Assembly (NCBI GenBank): GCA_002793915.1
Contig: PFEF01000006.1
Coordinates: 97,368-161,367, forward strand
Direction: 5' to 3'
Source: Candidatus Ryanbacteria bacterium CG10_big_fil_rev_8_21_14_0_10_43_42
GTDB lineage: Bacteria > Patescibacteriota > Minisyncoccia > Ryanbacterales > 2-02-FULL-48-12
DNA length: 64,000 nucleotides
Shown here: piece after piece, positions 9,609-21,651 of the stretch
How positions within the stretch are numbered: the stretch's first letter is position 1
How the letters are laid out: every line of letters starts with the position of its first letter
Translations under genes and position numbers: made by a program
Notes under the pieces: model-generated
Database searches by the model: none
Told to the model about the DNA's origin: nothing
The model's input: only the letters and a program-made list of their open reading frames with translations

Positions 9609-9744
9609 TGGACGCACACTCATATTTTGCAAGATCGTTGAAAATCTATTCTATTGTTCCGGTCGAACACGGTGCGCACTTTTTGTGTGCTGTGTTCATA
9701 TTCTGAATATTATAATGAGTAATATCACTATGGTATTTGGATTT

Positions 9745-11215
<1,471 letters not shown>

Positions 11216-11344
11216 TAAGGATATACATCTCATGCTAACGGCATGAGTATGGTCGTTCGAATATTTGCGGATATATGGCAAGTATTTGAAACGGTTTGGT
11301 CGTCACCAATCAGAAAACGACTCCGGAACAATAGAATAGGCGTT

Positions 11345-11386
11345 CAACACAAAAAGCCGCCGTCAAACGGCGGTTTTTTGTGTTGG
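11345..11386 (+). terminator. long perfect hairpin with a T-run in the 16S-tRNA spacer
   Basis: caacacaaaaagccgcc / ggcggttttttgtgttgg, a 17 bp stem with a 7 nt loop. Confidence 0.4.
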
Positions 11387-11544
11387 TGGGAGTAAGTAAA
11401 TGGAATGCAGGAAATGGCAATAATCGTTTATGGGCGGTTATCATATTGAAAAATAGAGTAAAACAGTGTAGGCTATGTTCTATAGATACGGGTGTTCAGC
11501 TCAAGCCGGTTTAATCCGTTCTGAACAAGTGCCTTATAATTAAT

Positions 11545-11618
11545 GGGCGTGTAGCTCAGCTGGTTAGAGCGCGTCACTGATAATGACGAGGTCGGAGGTT
11601 CGAGTCCTCCCACGCCCA
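11545..11618 (+). tRNA. tRNA-Ile (anticodon GAT)
   Basis: Cloverleaf read by hand: acceptor gggcgtg/cacgccc, anticodon loop ctGATaa, T-loop ttcgagt. No encoded CCA. Confidence 0.9.
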
Positions 11619-11628
11619 CAGAATGGAT

Positions 11629-11717
11629 TTAGAGCGGAGAAGAGTAATAGGAATTACTCTTCTCCTGATAACTAGAAAATACCTGTGATATTTTCTAGAG
11701 GTCGGAGGTTCGGAGTA
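11629..11717 (+). pseudogene. degenerate tRNA-Ile-derived element: a copy from the D-arm 3' side to the T-loop, with both anticodon-stem halves replaced by perfect hairpins
   Basis: It shares ttagagcg, ctgataa and a 14 nt exact aggtcggaggttcg with the upstream tRNA-Ile. In place of the anticodon-stem halves it has inserted hairpins gagaagagtaat/attactcttctc and ctagaaaata/tattttctag. Confidence 0.5.
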
Positions 11718-11792
11718 ACGTAATCCAAGTGGACATAAAGATACACACAGTAATAAATGCGCTTCTTGCGTATTTTTTTGTATACTATATCT

Positions 11793-12764
11793 ATGAAGCA
11801 GAATAAATTAAAAATTGGTGTTGTAATGGGCGGACCGTCGAGCGAGCATGATATTTCATTAATGACGGGTAGGAATGTTATAGATACTCTTCGCGGATTA
11901 GGGCATACGGTAACACAGGTATATGTTACCAAATCGGGCAATTGGCTCTATAACAACAGTGCTTCCGCTTTCGATCCGGTAGAGATATGCGCACGTCATG
12001 ATGTTATGTTCAATGCTATGCACGGGGAATATGGTGAGGATGGGCAGGTACAGCAAATTTTTGACAGATGCAATGTGCGGTATACGGGATCTCGCACAAC
12101 GGCGGCGGCACTTGCGATGAACAAAATAATCAGCAAAGATATTTTTAATAAGGCGGGAATCCTTACGCCAAGAGCCGTAGCGTTCGAGCGGAATAATTTT
12201 GATATGAAGGAGGCTCTTTCTCGCGTGCATCTCATGACGGCACCTCCCTGGGTAGTGAAGCCCGCAAGTCGCGGTTCTTCCGTGGGTGTTACCATAGCAC
12301 GCACACTTCCGGGGTTAGCCGACGGTTTGGAAACCGCATTCGGGTATGATAATCATGTTGTAGTGGAAGAATTTATAAAAGGACGGGAGATTACCTGTGG
12401 AGTACTTCAGGATTTTGCCGGAGAGGATGTGCACGCGCTTCACCCGCTGGAGATTATTCCGCCGGACGGAAAGTTCTTTGATTATGAAGTAAAGTATGAT
12501 GGTTCTACAAAAGAAGTTCCAGCACCGTTCTTCGGCGAAATGCTTAAAAATATTAAGGCACAGGCCGTTGCGGCTCATAATGCGCTCGGATGTCGGCATT
12601 ATTCCCGTACGGATATGATTATTAAGGGAACGAAAATATACGTTTTGGAAACGAATACCCTACCGGGACTCACAAGCGAATCGCTTTTCCCGAAACAGGC
12701 GCGATTAGCTAAAATGGAATTTCCGCAGTTACTGGAACATTTGGTGCGTTTGGCAACGGCATAA
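11793..12764 (+). CDS. ddl: D-alanine--D-alanine ligase
   Basis: MKQNKLKIGVVMGGPSSEHDISL N-terminus and an ATP-grasp pattern. The ORF track starts at 11757, but the ATG at 11793 fits the family N-terminus. Confidence 0.8.
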   Translation: MKQNKLKIGVVMGGPSSEHDISLMTGRNVIDTLRGLGHTVTQVYVTKSGNWLYNNSASAFDPVEICARHDVMFNAMHGEYGEDGQVQQIFDRCNVRYTGSRTTAAALAMNKIISKDIFNKAGILTPRAVAFERNNFDMKEALSRVHLMTAPPWVVKPASRGSSVGVTIARTLPGLADGLETAFGYDNHVVVEEFIKGREITCGVLQDFAGEDVHALHPLEIIPPDGKFFDYEVKYDGSTKEVPAPFFGEMLKNIKAQAVAAHNALGCRHYSRTDMIIKGTKIYVLETNTLPGLTSESLFPKQARLAKMEFPQLLEHLVRLATA

Positions 12765-12792
12765 CAGATCTTTTACAAGGAGGAAGTGTTTT

Positions 12793-13536
12793 ATGAGACG
12801 CATGCGATGGCAGAGTTGGGCTTTGGGATTTTCTCTTTTATATATTTTAGTTAAGGGATTTGGTTCATCTGAATATGCGAGTATGGTAACGCCCGCACGC
12901 TTTTATATACAGTCTTATTTTGTAGAAACGCGCCTGGTTGTATACGAAGGGGAATACTGGCGTGTTGTACTACACGAAAAGCAGAATCCGCATTTCTTGC
13001 GGAGCATCGTGCGTTTAAAACGGGTATGCGAATCTCCCGTATGCCTAACGTCTGCTGAAAGGCGAGAACGGGATGAGATAGAACTCGTACTACATACTTT
13101 GGTACTTAGATATGGCGCCACCTACACCAACTTTATGCGTCTTATGAATAATGCTTATCGTTCGCCGATTCCTATGCCGGTAATGCATTATCACTTTATT
13201 CCGCGCTACAAAACCCCATTTTCTTTTGGAGAGATATATTTTCATGATAAGGCGTATGGGCGTCATTATTCTGAAAACGAAGAAAAGCCGGTTCCTCCCG
13301 CACTTATGCTTCTCATAAAAAATATTGTAGGGAAAGAATTTAAAGACCGTATGCCAAAGCCATCCGCAGAGGTGGCTTTTTTCTTGAAAAAAAGGAAGAA
13401 CCATGGTATGGTTTTTTGTAGATTTCAAATTAAAATATTTCGAAATTTACGAGGGCGAATTTCGGTAGCTCATCTGGTAGAGCGGTTTGATATGCCCCCA
13501 GCATATCAAACTTGCACTGCGGAGGGTGGAAAGTAA
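12793..13536 (+). CDS. hypothetical protein (possible HIT-like fold); the 3' end runs into the tRNA-like element
   Basis: 247 aa ORF with no family recognised with confidence. The last 27 codons are translated from the tRNA-Ala-like sequence, so the true C-terminus or the gene's integrity is uncertain. Confidence 0.3.
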   Translation: MRRMRWQSWALGFSLLYILVKGFGSSEYASMVTPARFYIQSYFVETRLVVYEGEYWRVVLHEKQNPHFLRSIVRLKRVCESPVCLTSAERRERDEIELVLHTLVLRYGATYTNFMRLMNNAYRSPIPMPVMHYHFIPRYKTPFSFGEIYFHDKAYGRHYSENEEKPVPPALMLLIKNIVGKEFKDRMPKPSAEVAFFLKKRKNHGMVFCRFQIKIFRNLRGRISVAHLVERFDMPPAYQTCTAEGGK

Positions 13537-13566
13537 CGGGGTTACTTTCCACGGTTCGAGTCCTAG
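13465..13566 (+). pseudogene. degenerate tRNA-Ala-derived element with two perfect hairpin insertions
   Basis: Its D-arm gtagctcatctggtagagcg, the cttgcactgcgg segment and the T-loop ggttcgagtcc are identical to tRNA-Ala 150 nt downstream. The 5' anticodon-stem half is replaced by tttgatatgc/gcatatcaaa, and gtggaaagtaa/ttactttccac is inserted before the T-arm. No acceptor pairing is present. Confidence 0.5.
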
Positions 13567-13611
13567 GAGGGTAAAAGACTTTAATAATAGGTTTAGAGAC
13601 GTAAATAATAT

Positions 13612-13684
13612 GGGCCCGTAGCTCATCTGGTAGAGCGCCGCACTTGCACTGCGGAGGTGGCAGGTTCGAGTCCTGTCGGGTCCA
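13612..13684 (+). tRNA. tRNA-Ala (anticodon TGC)
   Basis: Acceptor gggcccg/cgggtcc with a G3:U70 pair, anticodon loop ctTGCac, T-loop ttcgagt. Confidence 0.9.
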
Positions 13685-13812
13685 CATCGTAAATCTCAAT
13701 AACCGTTTTTAACCTCCCGCTGTCCGCGTGCCGGCAAGGCGGAAAGAGGGAGTTTTTGGTTTGCTTAGCCGCTTTCTTGTTTACAAAACCCCTTAAATCC
13801 GATATGATTTAA

Positions 13813-13848
13813 ATATAGATATTCCATACTTTATATTATAATCTATAT
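13813..13848 (+). promoter_or_regulatory. inverted repeat (atatagat ... atctatat) spanning a TATAAT-like box upstream of the XRE gene; candidate operator
   Basis: 8 bp inverted-repeat arms separated by about 20 nt, 25-60 nt upstream of the ATG at 13872. Confidence 0.3.
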
Positions 13849-13871
13849 ACCAATTTATATAACAGAAAGTT

Positions 13872-14069
13872 ATGAAAATTGCAGATAACCTCAAAAAAAT
13901 AAGAGCGGAAAAGAGCTACTCTCTCGAAAAAGTGGCGCGGTTAGCTGATTTGTCGCTCAATACGGTTGTAAAGATAGAAAGCGGGGTCAATAAGAATCCT
14001 ACTATCGATACTCTTTCCAAAATCGCCAAGGCGCTTGAGGTTGATGTTGATGATTTAATACAGAAGTAG
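13872..14069 (+). CDS. XRE-family helix-turn-helix regulator (controller/C-protein-like)
   Basis: 65 aa with an HTH_XRE pattern (SLEKVARLADLSLNTVVKIESG). The stop codon lies 2 nt before the methyltransferase ATG. Confidence 0.7.
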   Translation: MKIADNLKKIRAEKSYSLEKVARLADLSLNTVVKIESGVNKNPTIDTLSKIAKALEVDVDDLIQK

Positions 14070-14071
14070 TT

Positions 14072-15190
14072 ATGAACACCCAAACCTTAAACATGGGCCT
14101 TAACAAGGCTGGTCAAGCAAAGAAAGATGAGTTTTATACTCAGCTCGTTGATATTGAAAAAGAGTTGAAGCATTACAAAAATCAATTTCGAGGCAAGGTT
14201 GTTTATTGCAACTGCGACGATCCGTTTGAGAGTAACTTTTTTAAATATTTCGCTGGTAATTTTAATGCACTGGGATTGAAAAAACTAATTGCGACGAGCT
14301 ACAAGCCGTCACCTATTGCAAATACACAGCTTGGACTATTTGGTGACGAAGAAGTGCTGACAAAATCCAAAGGCCGTCCAAAAGTGACTGCCAATAAATT
14401 TATCATCAACGAAGTTGATGATTTTGATGGCGACGGTGCTTTTGATTTACGTGATGTCGCTGAACAGCTCAAAGCAAACAAAAACAACGAATGGGCACCG
14501 TTAGATAGCGAGGGAGATTTTAGAAGTCCAGAAAGTATAGAGTTGCTTAAACAAGCTGACATTGTAGTGACAAATCCGCCATTTTCACTCTTTCGTGAGT
14601 ATGTAGCCCAACTTGTTGAATACGATAAGAAATTTTTAATACTTGGGGACCAAAACGCCATAACATACAAGGAGATTTTTAAGTTAATTAGCGACGATAA
14701 AATATGGCTCGGTTACGATAATGGAGGCACGAAATGGTTTCAAGTCCCGATGGATTACGACATTCCAACTGAATCAAGAAAGAAAATCGTAAACGGCGTG
14801 AAGTATTTCAGTATGGGAAGAATTATGTGGTTTACAAATCTTGAGACCACAAAACGTCACGAGAGACTGACTTTGTATAAAACATACACCGCACAAGAAT
14901 ATCCTAAATACGACAACTATCCTGCAATAAACGTTGATAAAGTCTCTGATATTCCAATGGACTACGATGGAATAATGGGTGTCCCTATTACTTTCATCGA
15001 TAAATACAATCCAGAGCAGTTTGAAATATTAGGCATTACTGATAGACAAAACACGTCTGGTCTCCGAACGAAAAAATATACAGAAGCGGACAATCCTAAA
15101 TACAACGACTTAAATGCTCGTAGCGTGATAAAAACTGGCAATACTTACAAAGCTGTGTACGCGCGACTTTTAATAAGAAATAAAAAATAA
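14072..15190 (+). CDS. N6-adenine DNA methyltransferase (NPPF motif; EcoRI-methylase-like family)
   Basis: VVTNPPFSL is catalytic motif IV of amino-methyltransferases. The N-terminal DEFYT..CDDPFES region is as in the EcoRI-methylase family, recalled from memory. Translationally coupled to its neighbours. Confidence 0.55.
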   Translation: MNTQTLNMGLNKAGQAKKDEFYTQLVDIEKELKHYKNQFRGKVVYCNCDDPFESNFFKYFAGNFNALGLKKLIATSYKPSPIANTQLGLFGDEEVLTKSKGRPKVTANKFIINEVDDFDGDGAFDLRDVAEQLKANKNNEWAPLDSEGDFRSPESIELLKQADIVVTNPPFSLFREYVAQLVEYDKKFLILGDQNAITYKEIFKLISDDKIWLGYDNGGTKWFQVPMDYDIPTESRKKIVNGVKYFSMGRIMWFTNLETTKRHERLTLYKTYTAQEYPKYDNYPAINVDKVSDIPMDYDGIMGVPITFIDKYNPEQFEILGITDRQNTSGLRTKKYTEADNPKYNDLNARSVIKTGNTYKAVYARLLIRNKK

Positions 15191-15192
15191 TT

Positions 15193-16296
15193 ATGAAAAT
15201 TGAACTACACAGAATCAAAATACGTGAGGTAGTCAATGGCTACGCAGACAATCATGAAGAAGGTGTGGTTGCTTATGGTGGCAAGCTCGATATTCGACCT
15301 AAATATCAACGTGAATTTGTCTATAAAGATAAACAGCGCGATGCGGTCATTGATACCGTAAAGAAAAATTTTCCGCTCAATGTGATGTATTGGGTAAAAA
15401 GCGACGACGATAGCTTTGAGGTGTTAGACGGACAGCAAAGAACAATCAGTATCGGGCAATTTGCGAATGGAGATTTTTCGGTGGACTTTAATGGTCGCAC
15501 TGCTATGTTCCACAACCTTACTAAAGAAGAACAGGGGCAAATCCTCGATTACGAATTGATGGTGTACTTCTGTGAAGGAACAGATAAGGAAAAGTTAGAT
15601 TGGTTCAAGATTATCAACATCGCAGGCGAACGTCTTACCGATCAAGAATTGCGAAATGCTGTTTACACTGGCACATGGCTTTCGGACGCAAAACTTAAGT
15701 TTAGTAAATCTGGCTGCGCGGCATATCTTTTGGCAAATGATGGCGGCGCATTGCTTACAGGTTCACCAATTAGACAAGAGTACCTAGAAACTGCACTCTC
15801 GTGGATCAATAGCGGCGAAATTGCCGAATATATGGCAAAGCATCAGCACGACAAGAATGCCGATGAGCTGTGGAAGTATTTCCAAAATGTTATTGCGTGG
15901 GTGCGTCAGACATTTCCGAACTATCGCAAAGAAATGGCGCACGTAAATTGGGGCGAGTTGTACAACCAATTCAAGGATAAAAAGCTAAACGCCAAGAAAC
16001 TTGAAACAGAAGTTGCAGAATTTATGAAAGACGAAGATGTAACAAAAAAATCTGGTATCTATCCGTATGTTTTGACGCGAAATGAGCGGCATTTAAATAT
16101 CCGTTCATTTACTGACAATATGAAGCGAGAGGCGTACGAGAGGCAGAAAGGTATTTGTGCATTCTGCAAAGAAAAGTTTGATATTTCTGATATGGAAGCT
16201 GATCACATTACCCCTTGGCATGAGGGCGGCAAAACTAACGCAAAAAATTGCCAGTTGTTGTGCAAAGACGATAACCGAAGGAAATCTGGAAAGTAA
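15193..16296 (+). CDS. DUF262 (ParB-like, DGQQR) domain fused to a C-terminal HNH endonuclease
   Basis: LDGQQRTISIGQF is the DUF262 hallmark. The C-terminus CAFCKEKF...ADHITPWHEGGKTNAKNCQLLCKDDNRRK is an HNH motif. Its start overlaps the methyltransferase stop (taattATG). Confidence 0.7.
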   Translation: MKIELHRIKIREVVNGYADNHEEGVVAYGGKLDIRPKYQREFVYKDKQRDAVIDTVKKNFPLNVMYWVKSDDDSFEVLDGQQRTISIGQFANGDFSVDFNGRTAMFHNLTKEEQGQILDYELMVYFCEGTDKEKLDWFKIINIAGERLTDQELRNAVYTGTWLSDAKLKFSKSGCAAYLLANDGGALLTGSPIRQEYLETALSWINSGEIAEYMAKHQHDKNADELWKYFQNVIAWVRQTFPNYRKEMAHVNWGELYNQFKDKKLNAKKLETEVAEFMKDEDVTKKSGIYPYVLTRNERHLNIRSFTDNMKREAYERQKGICAFCKEKFDISDMEADHITPWHEGGKTNAKNCQLLCKDDNRRKSGK

Positions 16297-16306
16297 CACT
16301 AACACC

Positions 16307-19300
16307 ATGAGGCTACCTCCCCAAACAATACGAACACTGTTAGAGGCAATTTTTTGGGGATCTGCTGTTTCGTTTACCTTTATTCTTGGATCCGCTATTG
16401 GATCATGGTTTTCGTTGAATATTCTCCCAGACTATTCATGGTTGATTACTCGTAAGGGCGAGGCATTTTATATTTTTGTATTCGCTCTTTTATTCTCTTA
16501 TCTTTACTTTCGAGATTTTCTACAAGTAGTATGGAAGGTCATAAAGAGTTCGAGATTTGATATTTTTATTGCGGCAGGATTAAGTGCATTGGTGGTCTTT
16601 AGCAATAAAAATATACTTTCTACATACATACAGGAGCATGTAATGGAACTAAACAGCGACAGCGTATTACTTTTCTTTATTATTGTATTTATTTTGTCGC
16701 TATCATGCGTACTGTATGTGATACTGCAAATGTTTAACCGCAGAAAGAAAGTGGACTCAAAATTTGCAAATGATAACCCAATTAGGGATTCCGAAGGCGA
16801 TCTCCTGGATTTTAGTACAAAAGCAAATTCGTTCGCAGAGAATATCTTTCATGCTTCACAGGGTAAGGGTTTAGTGTTTGGTGTAGATGCCCCTTGGGGA
16901 TCTGGTAAGTCATCATTTTTAAATCTCTGTAAGAGGTATTGGGAAATCAAACATAAAAACGAGTTAATTGTGTACGAATTTAGTCCCTTACACTATTCAA
17001 CAGATGCTAATTTACTTGAGAGATTTGTGGATGGTCTAATAAAAGAAATACAAAAGAATGTTTTTATTCCTGAGATACGCCCACTTTTTTCTCAATATTC
17101 TAAGCTCATCAAGATAGTAAATGGATTTAGTATTTTTGGGGTAAAAATTCCAGAATTTGCTAGTAGGCGCACCATTAACGATGTACATAATGATTTAGAG
17201 TGTGCACTAAATGGAATCAATAGGAGAATAATCGTTATTGTAGACGACCTAGACCGCATAGAATTAAAAGAGATTAAGAACGTATTGTTTGCAATACGTG
17301 AAAGTTTTAAATTCCCCAATATTTCGTATGTCTTATGTTACGACACAGAGAATATAAATGCATTGGAGGCAGATACGCCAGAGATTGAGACGGTGAATGA
17401 ATTCCTGGAGAAATTCGTCAATATTAAGATAAGTATTTTCCTCGATAAGAAAAACCTAGAGAATTTCGTTTCAAAAGAATTGAAAAAGGTAATTGAGGAC
17501 AAAACAACAGATCCAGAACTTGTTGCTGTCGTATTAAGCGGACTACGCGACATATTTCAATCACCTGAATTTCATCGTTATACGTCCTTTGTCGGAGACA
17601 TTAGAAAATTGAAGCGACTTGTGAATACGGTGGTTCTTTTAGAGTTGTATAAAGTAAACTTCGATAAAGCAGATATTGATAAGTTTGATTTAGCTCATTT
17701 ACTACTGATTTATATTAATTATCCAAGTATTTTCAGAAAAATTTATAACACCGAAACTGCAGGTGGTTATGGTTTTTTCTCTGCAGTTGGTCCCTATGAC
17801 AGTGAGTTTTATCCAAAAGATAAGAAGAGAAACAATGGAGAAAGGAGCGACACATATGAAAATTCTGATGTATACAACGAATATCTAGAGGACTTAACAG
17901 ATAATCAAAAGTTTCTCATTGAGCAGATATTTAATGTCACTAGGCGACTTAAGCGAGCAAAAAATAATGATAGTGCAAACCACTACATCAATAATGAAGA
18001 TTCATATCGAAAGATAGACAGTGTATCGGAAGACATAAAAACTTCCCTGGCATGTTTCAATGGTGACAAATTTACTGGTTCTGGTCGCAATCTAGAAGAT
18101 TATTTGCGTTTAATTGCTCATCTAGCGCCGCCAGAAGAAGAAAAGCAATTTGCACCTTTCAAAAACTGGCGAGACAAGATCATTAGCGAAGATATAACTA
18201 TAGAACAACTTTTTAATCAACCAGAATTTTCTGTTGAACTTGGCGAGCAAAAGCGACAAAAACTTTGGCGTCTCATTGTAAACAACACAAGGAAACTGAA
18301 TCAAAATGTTGCTGGTAATTTAATAAGGTATCTGACACAAAATATATCTAAATATTCCCTGTTTGAAAACGAGGTTCTTGGCGTAGGACTACGTCATCAT
18401 GATCTTCCTTATTTTTTGGTACGACTGCTTAATGATGCTGGATATAAAGGTAGCATGAATGGTAATAATACGGAGGAAAACATCAAAGAAATCGCTGATT
18501 GGATTTTCGGTGAAGACACCCACAAAGATGAAGGAATACTAGACGCCTTGTTAGAAGATGAGCGAGGTATTCTTGGTCTATATGATTCACTTAGTTTGAG
18601 ATTGATCTGCTGTTCCGATAGAGGTGGCGATATTTTCAACGTATCTAGAGCAATAGCAAAACACGGTAATAAAGAAGCTCCTACTGCGGGGGACACGAGA
18701 ATCATTGTAAAAGAAGAAATGCGTGAAATTTCACAGAAAATTTTTGGTGTGTTTAAATCACGATACATTGACAAAAAGATTAACATTTTTTCGGAAGTTC
18801 AAAAGTTGTCTTTGGATAATATAACGGGAGAATATTCCACTTATGTGCGAAATCAAGTGAAAGGCGGTGTTATATCTGAAGATAAGTTACAGGCAGATGT
18901 TGAATATACAAAATTTAATGCTTTAGGTTTTATTGTTTACCAGCTAGGTGATGACCAGATAAATCACGGGGTTGGTTGTGGTCTTTATGATCCTCTCGGA
19001 AATGCTGACAAAGGAATGATCAAAAACTTGATGAATAAGTATCTATTTGAGAGGTGCTTTAATCCGACAACCAGTGAGAATAATTATGAGAATCTTTTAA
19101 GTTTGCTTTTGAGGAATATTCCATTTGATGCTCTCAGGGAAGATCATTTTGGTAAAATTCCTGACTTTAAGTTAAAAACGATTGTTGGTGTTCTTGATAT
19201 ACAAACTCTCTCTGAATTTTGGAAGGAACATAGAGAAAAAATCAAGAAACTAAACTTTGAGAATTCAGGTAAAAAAATATTTATGGGAACACGATATGTA

Positions 19301-19414
19301 AATTCAGATTCTGAGGATATTTTTGCGTCCTATCAAAACGACTTGCCACGTGTATATAAGGCACTCGATGATTATATCGATAACCCTACTGGCAAAGGGG
19401 AGTCGCCCGCATAG
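16307..19414 (+). CDS. KAP-family P-loop NTPase with an N-terminal 4-5 helix transmembrane region
   Basis: Walker A GVDAPWGSGKSSFLNL and Walker B IIVIVDDLDR within a KAP-like region, preceded by about 180 aa of transmembrane helices. The ORF track begins at 16157, but the ATG at 16307 sits just after the upstream stop. Confidence 0.7.
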   Translation: MRLPPQTIRTLLEAIFWGSAVSFTFILGSAIGSWFSLNILPDYSWLITRKGEAFYIFVFALLFSYLYFRDFLQVVWKVIKSSRFDIFIAAGLSALVVFSNKNILSTYIQEHVMELNSDSVLLFFIIVFILSLSCVLYVILQMFNRRKKVDSKFANDNPIRDSEGDLLDFSTKANSFAENIFHASQGKGLVFGVDAPWGSGKSSFLNLCKRYWEIKHKNELIVYEFSPLHYSTDANLLERFVDGLIKEIQKNVFIPEIRPLFSQYSKLIKIVNGFSIFGVKIPEFASRRTINDVHNDLECALNGINRRIIVIVDDLDRIELKEIKNVLFAIRESFKFPNISYVLCYDTENINALEADTPEIETVNEFLEKFVNIKISIFLDKKNLENFVSKELKKVIEDKTTDPELVAVVLSGLRDIFQSPEFHRYTSFVGDIRKLKRLVNTVVLLELYKVNFDKADIDKFDLAHLLLIYINYPSIFRKIYNTETAGGYGFFSAVGPYDSEFYPKDKKRNNGERSDTYENSDVYNEYLEDLTDNQKFLIEQIFNVTRRLKRAKNNDSANHYINNEDSYRKIDSVSEDIKTSLACFNGDKFTGSGRNLEDYLRLIAHLAPPEEEKQFAPFKNWRDKIISEDITIEQLFNQPEFSVELGEQKRQKLWRLIVNNTRKLNQNVAGNLIRYLTQNISKYSLFENEVLGVGLRHHDLPYFLVRLLNDAGYKGSMNGNNTEENIKEIADWIFGEDTHKDEGILDALLEDERGILGLYDSLSLRLICCSDRGGDIFNVSRAIAKHGNKEAPTAGDTRIIVKEEMREISQKIFGVFKSRYIDKKINIFSEVQKLSLDNITGEYSTYVRNQVKGGVISEDKLQADVEYTKFNALGFIVYQLGDDQINHGVGCGLYDPLGNADKGMIKNLMNKYLFERCFNPTTSENNYENLLSLLLRNIPFDALREDHFGKIPDFKLKTIVGVLDIQTLSEFWKEHREKIKKLNFENSGKKIFMGTRYVNSDSEDIFASYQNDLPRVYKALDDYIDNPTGKGESPA

Positions 19415-19468
19415 CGGGCGGTTTGCGCGCGCACTGGGAGGGTGGGGCAAACGCAAAGACATTTTTTG
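19404..19468 (+). terminator. GC-rich tandem hairpins ending in a T-run; the KAP gene stop codon lies in the first loop
   Basis: cgcccgc-atag-gcgggcg, then gtttgc..gcaaac, then attttttg. Confidence 0.4.
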
Positions 19469-19542
19469 CCTACTTTGTTATAATTCACAAAAAGCGGACA
19501 TGTCGACCCGCTCTCATATAAATCAACTAACCTTTTATAACT

Positions 19543-20487: not shown

Positions 20488-21651
20488 ATGGAGAACAAAG
20501 CACAGCAAAATGACAAATTTATGGCAGGTACTCACAAAAAGCACTTCTGGGGTAAGGATTATGAATACCAGAGTTTTTTGCCGTCTCCGGTAAATCATCC
20601 CTACGAGTGGCAAGATAAAAGAATTCCTGTTCTCCTTGAAGAGGCAATTAGACTTGTCGGAGAATTAAATGCTTATTCCATCCTTGTGCCGGATGTAGAT
20701 TTTTTCATTCAAATGCATGTGCGCAATGAAGCGGTAAAATCCAGTCGCATTGAAGGCACTCGCACTGGTATGGATGAAGCTGTTTTGCCGGAAGAAGAAA
20801 TCTCTCCGGAAAAAAGAGATGACTGGACTGAGGTACAAAATTATATTGCCGCAATGAATAAGAGTATTGCCCGATTGAATGAGCTCCCGATCTCGATGAG
20901 GCTTTTACAAGAAGCTCATAAGATTTTATTGTCCGGCGTTCGTGGTGAACACAAACAACCGGGAGAAGTTCGCACCGCACAAAATTGGATTGGCGGCACA
21001 AGTATTCAGACCGCCGCTTTTATTCCACCCCATCCGGAAGATATGGGAGAGGCCTTAAAGGACCTTGAATTTTTTTGGCATAACAAAGGATTGAATATGC
21101 CCCACTTAATCAAGATGGCTATTTCGCATTATCAGTTTGAGACGATTCACCCGTTCAATGACGGCAACGGGAGAATTGGCCGTATGCTCATCGGGCTTCA
21201 TCTCATCGAGCTTGGAATTTTGCGAAAACCAACCCTGTATCTTTCGGACTTCTTTGAAAGAAATAAAGGTGCGTATTATGACGCGCTTACTTTTGTGCGA
21301 GAGAGGAATGATCTGGATCAATGGATAGTCTTTTTCCTCTCGGCAGTTATTGAGACGGCCAAAAAAGGCAAAGATACGTTCGAGAAAATTATCGATCTGC
21401 GTGCTCGCTACGAGAAACAAACTATGGAGCTCGGACGCCGGGCAAAACTGGCTCATAAACTTTTATTACAGTCATTTTCCATGCCTGCTTTTAAAGTTTC
21501 TGATGCATCAAAGTATCTTAACGCTTCAAACACGGCGACCAACACCCTTGTCGGCGAAATGGAGCGCGTTGGTATTCTTAAGGAAATTACCGGTTTTTCC
21601 CGTAACCGGATTTTTGTCCTGCACGAGTATCTGGAACTTTTTAAGAGATAA
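20488..21651 (+). CDS. fic: Fic-family protein (AMPylator/toxin-like) with an intramolecular inhibitory motif
   Basis: Fic motif [12 protein letters not shown], an N-terminal SSRIEG ([ST]xxxE[GN]) inhibitory helix, and a C-terminal winged-helix-like tail. Confidence 0.85.

What the first reader, a model, noticed from the sequence alone, without database searches (positions are those of the whole stretch)
13811..19470. Tightly coupled XRE-controller / N6A-methyltransferase / DUF262-HNH nuclease / TM-KAP NTPase operon: candidate novel R-M-like defence system
Four co-oriented genes run with 2-10 nt gaps or overlaps: XRE stop to methyltransferase ATG is 2 nt, the methyltransferase stop overlaps the next ATG (taattATG), and the KAP ATG is 10 nt after the HNH stop.

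The order is a 65 aa XRE HTH, then an NPPF-motif adenine methyltransferase, then a DUF262 (DGQQR)+HNH nuclease. This mimics classical controller-regulated Type II R-M operons (C-M-R), with an inverted repeat straddling the -10 region upstream acting as a possible C-box. However, the nuclease is a ParB/Srx-fold DUF262 domain fused to HNH, an architecture best known from GmrSD/SspE-type modification-sensing enzymes. A large membrane-embedded KAP P-loop NTPase is co-transcribed, and the operon ends in GC-rich hairpins.

A methyltransferase paired with a DUF262-HNH nuclease and a transmembrane KAP NTPase is not a textbook system. Two readings are possible. Either the nuclease cuts unmethylated DNA, making this a true R-M system with the NTPase as an accessory effector or sensor. 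Or the module combines a modification-dependent nuclease with an abortive-infection-like membrane NTPase.
Basis: partly seen in the sequence, partly recalled or inferred. Interest (0 to 1): 0.85.

Follow-up and report, generated by a model that had tools for sequence, protein, structure and literature searches.

The report
Ordinary restriction-modification cassette plus appended KAP NTPase
The four genes are real and tightly packed, but they are best read as a very common restriction-modification cassette followed by a separate membrane-ATPase defence gene in a slot that holds other defence genes in related genomes, not as a new four-part system.

Summary
Four co-oriented genes with gaps of 2, 2 and 10 nt encode an XRE regulator, an EcoRI-family N6-adenine methyltransferase, a DUF262(DGQQR)+HNH nuclease and a 1035-aa membrane KAP NTPase.

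The "novel four-component system" reading is not supported. The methyltransferase and nuclease match PADLOC's Type II MTase and REase profiles end to end. They are adjacent in 74 of 76 evaluable genomes across many phyla. The KAP gene follows the nuclease in 0 of 80 of those genomes, and DNA homology to related cassettes stops exactly at the nuclease stop codon.

In relatives, the position after the nuclease holds OLD-like ATPases, SIR2+HerA, Shedu, UvrD-like helicases and others. In five loci it is closed by the same ~36-nt GC-rich hairpin.

The KAP protein belongs to a family seen mainly in candidate-phyla-radiation (Patescibacteria) bacteria. It usually has no restriction gene beside it, but it sits directly downstream of restriction systems of Types I, ISP, II, IIG, III and IV in 15 of 50 unique loci, and upstream of none in 46.

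Best reading: a controller-regulated Type II R-M cassette, probably co-transcribed with an independent PifA/Tmn-like defence gene. The recognition sequence and any functional coupling remain untested.

The parts
13612..13685 (+). tRNA-Ala(TGC), the landmark immediately left of the acquired block. No repeat of its 3' end was found downstream.
   Evidence: ARAGORN, Rfam, direct-repeat search.
13747..13871 (+). Conserved 5' regulatory region of the R-M cassette. Contains a promoter-like site (TTTACA-17-TATGAT, 13780-13808), a second -10-like TATAAT near 13836, and inverted repeats (13793-13799/13806-12; 13806-17/13832-43; 13813-20/13841-48). Candidate controller-protein operator (C-box).
   Evidence: Promoter scan, best hit 10/12; inverted repeats; the region is conserved in L009, L012, L058 and L010; homology to relatives begins at 13747.
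13872..14069 (+). 65-aa XRE/HTH_3 regulator, the candidate controller (C) protein.
   Evidence: Pfam HTH_3 E 3.6e-14; PADLOC Control_protein E 5.3e-9. A detectable homologue sits in the same position in 15 of 67 related loci.
14072..15190 (+). 372-aa EcoRI-family N6-adenine DNA methyltransferase with an NPPF motif at residue 168.
   Evidence: Pfam EcoRI_methylase E 8.7e-139 over 2-345/345; PADLOC MTase_II E 2.2e-121; motif.
15193..16296 (+). 367-aa restriction endonuclease: N-terminal DUF262/ParB-like domain (DGQQR at residue 79) plus a C-terminal zinc-ribbon HNH domain.
   Evidence: Pfam GmrSD_N and HNH; PADLOC REase_II PDLC03418 E 5.3e-142 over 1-372/372; HNH match to PDB 4h9d; catalytic residues invariant in 38 homologues.
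16307..19414 (+). 1035-aa KAP-family P-loop NTPase: N-terminal block of hydrophobic helices (~5-144), NTPase core (~170-445) and an alpha-solenoid C-terminal half. A separate defence-gene candidate occupying the variable slot 3' of the R-M cassette.
19404..19469 (+). Three GC-rich hairpins closing the unit. The core 19421-19459 (TTGCGCGCGCACTGGGAGGGTGGGGCAAACGCAAAGA) is a conserved element found right after the different variable genes of L012, L058, L055 and L008.
   Evidence: RNA fold -32.3 kcal/mol, z -2.6; blastn and alignment; consensus stem with 2 compensatory pairs.

Best explanation
The locus is a composite of two defence modules laid out as one probable transcription unit.

Module 1 (13747-16296) is a mobile, controller-regulated Type II restriction-modification cassette.
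- An XRE-type C protein probably autoregulates a promoter that carries conserved inverted repeats (inferred).
- An EcoRI-family methyltransferase N6-methylates adenine in an unknown target sequence on host DNA (inferred from family).
- A DUF262-HNH endonuclease cuts DNA lacking that mark with its HNH active site. Its ParB-like DGQQR domain possibly confers NTP binding or regulation (inferred by analogy with GmrSD/BrxU).

Module 2 (16307-19414) is an autonomous KAP-family NTPase built as membrane anchor, NTPase switch and alpha-solenoid. It probably acts like other single-gene KAP defences (PifA, Tmn, EF_KAP). The solenoid would sense an infection cue. NTP-dependent switching or oligomerisation would then act at or through the membrane to stop phage replication. 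All of this mechanism is inferred.

KAP sits in a variable 'fourth-gene' slot between the nuclease stop codon and a conserved GC-rich hairpin. Near-identical cassettes fill that slot with other defence genes. The 10-nt gap and the absence of a promoter-like site just upstream of the KAP start suggest KAP is read through from the R-M promoter (inferred, not shown).
For: Identity of the M and R genes:
- Both match Type II profiles end to end.
- An EcoRI-family methylase lies upstream on the same strand in 74 of 76 evaluable genomes from many phyla, and within 150 nt in 60. The same pair occurs on plasmids of Proteobacteria, Firmicutes, Actinobacteria and Bacteroidota.

KAP is not part of that cassette:
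- It follows the nuclease in 0 of 80 related loci.
- DNA homology to related cassettes runs from 13747 and ends at 16296 in 13 of the 14 best loci, and at 16326 in the other, L007.

The slot is variable:
- The closest cassettes carry SIR2+HerA (L058), an OLD-like ATPase plus an unknown gene (L012), a 745-aa unknown protein (L009) or an SMC/AAA_21 ATPase (L004) where the window has KAP.
- Other loci carry Shedu, AAA_13 ATPases, UvrD-like helicases, OLD-TOPRIM, DUF2130 or DUF3644. Most sit 0-30 nt after the nuclease on the same strand.
- Five loci with five different inserts end in the same ~36-nt element.

KAP is autonomous:
- About two-thirds of 50 unique KAP loci have no restriction gene upstream.
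- Homologues on Burkholderia plasmids have no restriction genes annotated nearby and sit beside integrases.
- R-M-linked KAPs are scattered across the KAP tree next to unlinked ones.

KAP as a defence gene:
- PADLOC gives PifA and QatA hits, and RdrA of RADAR is the best structural match.
- Single-gene KAP NTPases with uncharacterised C-terminal regions protect against phage experimentally (PMC13552941; Tmn, bioRxiv 2022.08.21.504612).
- A SoFic homologue lies 1 kb downstream.
Against: - No experiment or transcript data exist for this uncultivated Ryanbacteria genome. Co-transcription, methylation specificity and restriction are all inferred.
- I could not name the characterised enzyme behind the PADLOC REase_II profile, nor the recognition site.
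- The four-gene order recurs in one diverged relative (L084-86; KAP 69% identical, 4-nt gap).
- A distant version occurs in L108, with a 55%-identical methylase, a 37%-identical nuclease, a 252-aa gene and then KAP.
- KAP homologues lie directly downstream of restriction genes far more often than upstream of them: 15 of 50 against 0 of 46. Some selected functional link between restriction systems and KAP therefore cannot be excluded.
- The KAP match to PifA covers only part of the profile, and no close homologue has been tested.
Confidence: 0.68

Rival explanations
1. R-M-coupled second line of defence. KAP is not a subunit of the R-M system, but its placement is selected. It is co-expressed with restriction systems and acts as a guard or abortive-infection back-up when restriction fails or is inhibited by phage anti-restriction proteins, as PrrC does with EcoprrI.
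For: - KAP homologues sit immediately downstream of, and co-oriented with, Type I, ISP, II, IIG, III and McrBC systems in 15 of 50 unique loci (19 of 50 within three genes). None of 46 loci has a restriction gene immediately downstream.
- Gaps are often -11 to +60 nt.
- The associations arose repeatedly across the KAP tree.
- The R-KAP junction is kept between the window and L084 despite 31% protein divergence.
- There is a precedent for a KAP NTPase synergising with another system: Tmn with Gabija.
Against: - The same slot behind this R-M cassette holds many unrelated defence genes, so the pattern may reflect a cassette-capture hotspot rather than KAP-specific function.
- These genomes are compact and strand-biased, so short gaps and co-orientation are the default.
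- About two-thirds of KAP loci have no restriction gene upstream.
- Closely related KAPs differ in whether a restriction system is present.
- The up/down asymmetry could arise because serine-recombinase elements occupy the downstream side.
Confidence: 0.17
2. Integrated four-component system. KAP is an obligate accessory, sensor or effector of a new R-M-like system.
For: Tight spacing. The same four-gene order occurs in L084-86.
Against: - KAP follows the nuclease in 0 of 80 nuclease-centred loci.
- Cassette homology ends at the nuclease stop codon.
- The M-R pair alone is widespread on plasmids.
- The window and L084 are sister KAPs, so their shared order is probably a single event.
Confidence: 0.04
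3. Modification-dependent (Type IV, GmrSD-like) nuclease next to an unrelated or orphan methyltransferase, plus an abortive-infection NTPase.
For: The DUF262 domain with DGQQR is best known from GmrSD, BrxU and SspE. The nuclease is more conserved (median 77%) than the methylase (median 60%).
Against: - The methylase partner is present on the same strand in 74 of 76 loci.
- The nuclease matches the Type II REase profile end to end.
- The C-terminal domain is a classical HNH (PF01844), not DUF1524.
- An m6A-dependent nuclease paired with an m6A methylase would be self-destructive unless their targets differ.
Confidence: 0.05
4. KAP is not a defence gene at all. It is a lineage-specific membrane NTPase with a cellular role that merely lies next to mobile DNA.
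For: - Housekeeping genes (ddl, ribonucleotide reductase, a tRNA synthetase, Clp protease) flank many homologues.
- The family is strongly conserved along its whole length (mean column identity 59-61%).
- ddl lies upstream of KAP in the window, L135 and L138.
Against: - Its distribution is sporadic: only 431 proteins were found.
- It associates with restriction systems, Fic proteins, serine recombinases and integrases.
- GC content is low relative to the flanks.
- It resembles PifA, QatA and RdrA.
Confidence: 0.05

Closest known systems
Controller-regulated Type II restriction-modification operons (C-M-R/C-R-M types such as PvuII, AhdI, Esp1396I). Comparison from general knowledge.
   Same: - A small HTH regulator comes first, followed by a tightly spaced methyltransferase and nuclease.
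- Conserved inverted repeats lie over the promoter.
- PADLOC Control_protein, MTase_II and REase_II profiles all hit.
   Different: - The regulator is a generic XRE/HTH_3 protein. Its best solved relatives are SinR and DdrO, not known C proteins.
- Only 15 of 67 related cassettes have a detectable homologue of it.
- No known C-box consensus was recognised.
- The nuclease has an extra ParB-like DUF262 domain.
GmrSD / BrxU / SspE (DUF262-DUF1524 Type IV enzymes)
   Same: N-terminal DUF262 with the DGQQR NTP-binding motif, followed by a His-Me finger nuclease (PMC4619093; PMC12707154).
   Different: - The C-terminal domain is a zinc-ribbon HNH (PF01844), not DUF1524.
- The enzyme is almost always paired with its own methyltransferase.
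- It is catalogued under a Type II REase profile.
- It therefore presumably attacks unmodified DNA, not modified DNA.
Single-gene KAP NTPase defences: PifA (F plasmid), Tmn, EF_KAP and relatives
   Same: - A KAP P-loop domain with intact Walker A and B motifs, membrane helices, and a large C-terminal region with no known domain.
- Located on mobile or defence DNA near recombinases.
   Different: - Only a partial PifA profile match (best stretch covers positions 160-292 of 720); Tmn is not among the four PADLOC families hit.
- The hydrophobic helices form a block N-terminal to the P-loop rather than being inserted in it.
- At 1035 aa it carries an alpha-solenoid C-terminal half.
- The family was found mainly in Patescibacteria.
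RdrA of the RADAR system
   Different: - Sequence identity is 11-13% and TM-scores are low.
- No RdrB deaminase partner is present in the window.
- I did not check whether RdrA has any counterpart to the N-terminal hydrophobic block.
PrrC-EcoprrI and RloC: abortive-infection genes embedded in restriction operons. Comparison from general knowledge.
   Same: An NTPase-containing second-line defence gene placed inside or at the end of a restriction-modification operon. This is the functional analogy for the rival 'guard' reading.
   Different: - KAP has no anticodon-nuclease domain and belongs to a different NTPase family.
- No evidence of physical masking by the R-M enzyme.
- The association here spans all restriction types rather than one.

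Membership tests
Type II restriction-modification system | A DNA methyltransferase with an intact catalytic motif. | tested here: met
   Pfam EcoRI_methylase E 8.7e-139 over the full profile. PADLOC MTase_II E 2.2e-121. NPPF at residue 168.
Type II restriction-modification system | A separate endonuclease with an intact active site that belongs to a catalogued REase family. | tested here: met
   PADLOC REase_II PDLC03418 E 5.3e-142, covering 1-367 of the protein against 1-372/372 of the profile. HNH E 1.8e-11. The D337-H338...N352...N361 and C322/C325/C353/C357 residues are invariant in 38 homologues.
Type II restriction-modification system | Conserved genetic linkage of the methyltransferase and nuclease genes. 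| tested here: met
   The methylase lies upstream on the same strand in 74 of 76 evaluable loci and within 150 nt in 60. The same pair occurs on plasmids.
Type II restriction-modification system | Sequence-specific cleavage of unmodified DNA that is blocked by the cognate methylation. | not testable with these tools
   This needs enzymology or methylome data. Palindrome-avoidance analysis gave no decisive motif.
Controller (C) protein regulation | A small HTH protein encoded first, binding a dyad-symmetric C-box over its own promoter. | tested here: inconclusive
   Position and HTH domain fit. PADLOC Control_protein E 5.3e-9. Conserved inverted repeats lie at the promoter. However, the closest solved relatives are SinR and DdrO, no known C-box consensus was found, and binding is untested.
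GmrSD/BrxU/SspE Type IV family | An N-terminal DUF262 domain with the DGQQR motif. | tested here: met
   Pfam GmrSD_N E 3.4e-18. DGQQR at residue 79.
GmrSD/BrxU/SspE Type IV family | A C-terminal DUF1524 His-Me nuclease domain. | tested here: not met
   No PF07510 hit. The C-terminus matches PF01844 HNH and PF14279 HNH_5 instead.
GmrSD/BrxU/SspE Type IV family | Acts on modified DNA and has no cognate protective methyltransferase. | tested here: not met
   Only the genomic-context half was tested, and it is not met: a methyltransferase partner is present in 74 of 76 loci. Substrate preference itself is untested.
KAP family P-loop NTPases (PF07693) | A KAP-type P-loop domain with Walker A and Walker B motifs. 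| tested here: met
   Pfam KAP_NTPase E 5.2e-44, covering 4-289/293 of the profile. GSGKS and IVIVDD motifs are present and invariant in 61 homologues.
Tmn / membrane-inserted KAP subgroup | Transmembrane helices inserted within the NTPase domain. | tested here: not met
   The hydrophobic helices lie at about residues 5-144, before Walker A at about 198. Tmn is not among the four PADLOC families hit.
PifA (Pif system) | Full-length similarity to F-plasmid PifA. | tested here: inconclusive
   PADLOC PifA E 4.3e-35, but in two partial stretches, the best covering positions 160-292 of 720. The similarity is confined to the NTPase core.
   KAP follows the nuclease in 0 of 80 nuclease-centred loci. 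The EcoRI-family methylase/DUF262-HNH pair lies co-oriented upstream of KAP in only 3 of about 50 unique KAP loci: the window, L084 and L108.

The most novel reading that the evidence does not exclude
Two linked ideas are not excluded.

(a) This KAP family could be a dedicated 'restriction back-up'. It would be repeatedly recruited as the last gene of restriction operons of every type. It would be triggered at the membrane when restriction is overwhelmed or blocked by anti-restriction proteins.

(b) The EcoRI-methylase/DUF262-HNH cassette could act as a gene-capture platform. A defined slot, bracketed by the nuclease stop codon and a conserved ~36-nt GC-rich hairpin, would collect promoter-less defence genes. 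It would be carried around by large serine recombinases.
Probability: 0.15. Interest if true: 0.72.

Novelty: new member of a known kind. Interest (0 to 1): 0.36.

Why it matters
As posed, the finding matters little. The R-M part is a common, already catalogued family, and the KAP gene is one more candidate in a class of single-gene defences that has recently been validated experimentally.

Three things are worth keeping:
- The methylase/DUF262-HNH pair is unusually conserved and extremely widespread across bacteria and archaea. Its nuclease architecture is usually associated with modification-dependent enzymes. I found no solved structure and no named prototype for it.
- Behind this cassette there is a clear variable slot that collects diverse defence genes. 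It could be used as bait to find new ones; several occupants have no Pfam or PADLOC match.
- This KAP family has a marked, polar association with restriction systems of all types. That association is cheap to test for synergy or guarding.

Tried and rejected
- **Recognition sequence from palindrome avoidance.** I analysed the window, 886 kb of R-M-bearing loci and 628 kb of KAP-only controls. There was no decisive signal. GAATTC and CAATTG are not avoided. GGTACC, GACGTC and GTTAAC are only mildly depleted.
- **Naming the characterised enzyme behind the PADLOC REase_II profile.** Literature searches (and the papers read) gave no prototype name.
- **Structure of the nuclease.** The homologue alignment is too shallow (77-89% identity). 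The model has mean pLDDT 54, with only the HNH part confident, so no fold search was run on it.
- **Integration-site repeats of the tRNA-Ala 3' end flanking the block.** None found.
- **Rfam match for the GC-rich 3' element.** None. There were also no exact matches in viral contigs.
- **PDB sequence relatives.** None for the methylase or KAP.
- **Aravind et al. 2004 KAP paper.** It is not held in the library. Its hypothesis is cited only second-hand through PMC13552941.
- **Alternative KAP start.** I rejected the GTG start at 16157, which overlaps the nuclease by 140 nt. Homologues align from the ATG at 16307.

Full report
**1. What is there**

The window comes from a Candidatus Ryanbacteria (Patescibacteria) contig. 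The nuclease is 100% identical to a protein that NCBI names from Candidatus Ryanbacteria bacterium CG10_big_fil_rev_8_21_14_0_10_43_42.

Four + strand ORFs lie at 13872-14069, 14072-15190, 15193-16296 and 16307-19414, with spacers of 2, 2 and 10 nt.

| Gene | Pfam hit | E-value |
|---|---|---|
| XRE regulator | HTH_3 | 3.6e-14 |
| Methyltransferase | EcoRI_methylase | 8.7e-139 |
| Nuclease | GmrSD_N/DUF262 | 3.4e-18 |
| Nuclease | HNH | 1.8e-11 |
| KAP | KAP_NTPase | 5.2e-44 |

The expected motifs are present: NPPF; DGQQR; a CxxC...DH...N...N HNH core; GSGKS and IVIVDD.

The methylase stop and the next ATG are separated by TT rather than overlapping. The KAP hydrophobic helices precede the P-loop rather than being embedded in it.

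The block lies just after tRNA-Ala (13612-13685). Its GC content is 0.34-0.41, against roughly 0.42-0.46 over most of the window.

**2. The first three genes are an ordinary, very common Type II R-M cassette**

PADLOC's Type II profiles match the methylase (E 2.2e-121) and the nuclease (PDLC03418, E 5.3e-142, residues 1-367 on 1-372/372). The XRE protein hits 'Control_protein' models, best E 5.3e-9.

The nuclease family is very large and unusually conserved.

I examined 80 species-representative genomes that carry the nuclease. They include Patescibacteria, Proteobacteria, Firmicutes, Bacteroidota, Elusimicrobia and archaea.
- 74 of 76 evaluable loci have an EcoRI-family methylase upstream on the same strand.
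- In 60 loci it lies within 150 nt.
- In 14 loci, 0.35-4.4 kb is inserted between the methylase and the nuclease.
- An XRE homologue sits in front in 15 of 67 loci.

The same pair occurs on plasmids from several phyla, annotated 'DUF262 domain-containing protein | adenine-specific methyltransferase EcoRI family protein'.

This near-universal pairing argues that the nuclease is protected against by its partner methylase, as in a true R-M system. It argues against a GmrSD-like modification-dependent enzyme. The C-terminal domain points the same way: it is a classical HNH, not DUF1524.

The upstream region holds the best promoter-like site (TTTACA-17-TATGAT, 13780-13808) and several inverted repeats. 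It is conserved in four related cassettes. This fits a C-box-like operator, but binding is untested, and the regulator's closest solved relatives are SinR and DdrO.

**3. KAP is not part of that cassette**
- None of the 80 nuclease-centred loci has a KAP homologue.
- DNA homology between the window and related cassettes starts at 13747. It ends at 16296, the last base of the nuclease stop codon, in 13 of the 14 best loci. In the other, L007, it runs to 16326.

The position just after the nuclease is usually filled, mostly with gaps of 0-30 nt on the same strand, but by different genes:

| Locus | Gene(s) in the slot |
|---|---|
| L058 (closest cassette: XRE 88%, methylase 81%, nuclease 86%) | SIR2 + HerA |
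| L049 | SIR2 + HerA |
| L012 | OLD-like ATPase plus a second, unknown gene |
| L038 | OLD-like ATPase |
| L075 | OLD-TOPRIM |
| L004, L056 | SMC/AAA_21 ATPase with PADLOC Ppl similarity |
| L011, L052 | AAA_13 ATPases |
| L054 | AAA_21 ATPase |
| L067 | Shedu |
| L036, L055 | UvrD-like helicases |
| L007 | DUF2130 |
| L010 | DUF3644 |
| L008 | C5-methylase plus HATPase |
| L005/L039/L042, L009/L081, L013 | Proteins with no Pfam or PADLOC match |

Five loci with five different inserts end in the same element, TTGyGCGCGCACTGGGnGGGTGGGGCAA...CAAAGA. The inserts are KAP, OLD-like plus unknown, SIR2+HerA, UvrD-like, and C5-methylase plus HATPase. The element lies directly after the insert and forms a stem with two compensatory pairs.

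The picture is therefore a conserved frame, made of promoter, C, M, R and the GC-rich hairpin, with a variable slot inside it. KAP is one of many occupants.

Large serine recombinase genes lie 1.3-2.5 kb upstream of the cassette in 9 loci and downstream of it in 3. This is consistent with a mobile element.

**4. What the KAP protein is**

It belongs to a well-conserved family of about 1000-aa proteins. 431 were found, mostly from Patescibacteria. The nearest is 69% identical and the rest are 48% or less.

The AlphaFold model has mean pLDDT 80. It shows three parts:
- an N-terminal helical, hydrophobic block (residues 5-144);
- a P-loop NTPase core;
- an all-alpha C-terminal half.

PADLOC gives partial PifA (E 4.3e-35) and QatA hits.

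Single-gene KAP NTPases with uncharacterised C-terminal regions have been shown to protect against phage in a Walker-B-dependent way (PMC13552941). Tmn, described in that preprint as a KAP NTPase, synergises with Gabija (bioRxiv 2022.08.21.504612).

The most likely mechanism is inferred from these relatives. The solenoid would sense an infection cue, the NTPase would switch or oligomerise, and the membrane block would deliver or localise the response.

**5. Is KAP linked to restriction systems?**

I collected 67 metagenome loci with KAP homologues, together with six contig places found by exact-protein look-ups of three KAP homologues.

The closest homologue (L084-86) has the same XRE-methylase-nuclease-KAP order, with a 4-nt gap and a convergent serine recombinase. 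The window and L084 are sister KAPs, and their DNA aligns continuously across the junction. This is probably one ancestral event.

More broadly, KAP homologues lie directly downstream of, and co-oriented with, very different restriction systems:

| Restriction type | Loci |
|---|---|
| Type I | L090, L091, L106, L145, L150 |
| Type ISP | L121 |
| Type III | L103, L140 |
| N6_N4 methylase + MvaI/BcnI nuclease | L092, L111 |
| N6_N4 methylase + MutH-like nuclease | L101 |
| Type IIG | L100, L124, L153 |
| McrBC | L152 |
| Eco57I-type methylase + XhoI nuclease | L087 |
| A divergent EcoRI-methylase/DUF262-HNH pair | L108 |

After removing duplicates, 15 of 50 loci have a restriction gene immediately upstream and co-oriented, and 19 of 50 have one within three genes. 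None of 46 loci has a restriction gene immediately downstream.

The association is labile. R-M-linked and unlinked KAPs interleave throughout the tree. About two-thirds of loci have housekeeping or unknown genes upstream. Burkholderia plasmid homologues have no restriction genes annotated nearby and sit beside integrases.

My reading is that KAP is an autonomous module that often rides at the 3' end of restriction operons. Whether that reflects selected synergy (a PrrC-like back-up) or only how defence cassettes accumulate in compact, strand-biased genomes cannot be decided here. I give the former about 0.17.

**6. Verdict**
- The domain-level interpretation is right.
- The 'novel R-M-like four-gene system' interpretation is not supported.

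The locus is a new member of known kinds: a catalogued Type II R-M family plus a candidate KAP-type single-gene defence, probably co-transcribed. A SoFic homologue lies 1 kb further on. Together they form a small defence island next to tRNA-Ala.

Untested points:
- the recognition sequence;
- any NTP dependence of the DUF262-HNH nuclease;
- co-transcription of KAP with the R-M genes;
- any R-M/KAP interplay.

Noticed in passing
window 9744-13685: The 16S rRNA gene (9744-11215) and tRNA-Ile (11545-11619) are followed by two protein-coding genes before tRNA-Ala (13612-13685). These are ddl (11757-12764) and a 247-aa ORF with no Pfam or NCBIfam hit (12793-13536). No 23S rRNA is detected anywhere in the 64 kb. 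The usual 16S-Ile-Ala-23S operon is therefore split, with coding genes in the 'spacer'.
   Followed up: partly
window 20488-21651: A Fic-domain protein matches PADLOC SoFic (E 5.1e-112) 1 kb downstream of KAP. Fic homologues also lie near KAP homologues in L109, L112 and L143.
   Followed up: partly
L084 5653-6936, L089 9083-10414, L094 8879-10192, L097 9063-10433, L115 5718-6947: Large serine recombinase genes converge on, and abut or overlap, the 3' end of KAP homologues. In L089, phage-like genes lie beyond (ParB-methylase, HNH). The KAP 3' end may serve as an attachment site for such elements.
   Followed up: partly
L007, L010, L013, L014, L026, L046, L049, L052, L069 (upstream of the R-M cassette): A large serine recombinase gene on the opposite strand lies 1.3-2.5 kb upstream of the EcoRI-methylase/DUF262-HNH cassette in 9 of 80 loci. 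It lies downstream of the cassette in L004, L021 and L025. This suggests the cassette travels on recombinase-borne elements.
   Followed up: no
window 19421-19459; L012 5775-5813; L058 5512-5540; L055 4524-4547; L008 10893-10923: A conserved ~36-nt GC-rich element (core GCGCGCACTGGGnGGGTGGGGCAA inside a 6-7 bp stem with two compensatory pairs) lies directly after five different variable genes. It has no Rfam match and no exact copy in viral contigs. It could be a terminator, a cassette boundary or a recombination site.
   Followed up: partly
L004-L083 (nuclease-centred loci): The nuclease is more conserved than its methyltransferase: median 77% against 60% identity to the window proteins, across many phyla including archaea. 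In my understanding this is the reverse of what is usual for Type II systems. It may mean one fixed specificity spread by transfer.
   Followed up: no
L016, L017, L018, L023, L028, L029, L030, L034, L037, L040, L045, L054, L066, L075: In 14 of 74 loci, 0.35-4.4 kb is inserted between the methylase and the nuclease. Examples are a DUF2130 gene in L017 and a Fic-like gene in L028. There may be a second insertion point inside the cassette.
   Followed up: no
L135 4031-5002, L138 524-1522, window 11757-12764: A ddl gene lies shortly upstream of KAP homologues in two other genomes (KAP identity 35-41%), as it does in the window. This is either a shared hotspot or coincidence.
   Followed up: no
L101 6044-6700, L102 9007-9636, L108 6156-6794, L109 2818-3456, L120 2344-3000: A ~212-aa gene directly follows KAP, with gaps of -20 to +3 nt, in five loci from one KAP clade. 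It has a weak DUF5677 hit only and no PADLOC hit. It may be a partner gene for that subfamily, and it is absent from the window.
   Followed up: partly
L005 4648-6396, L009 8093-10330, L013 8089-9771, L012 4333-5736, L032 8139-9242: Several occupants of the slot after the nuclease (367-745 aa) have no PADLOC match. Four have no Pfam match either. The fifth, L005, has only one sub-threshold Pfam hit. Given the company they keep, they are candidate uncharacterised defence genes.
   Followed up: no
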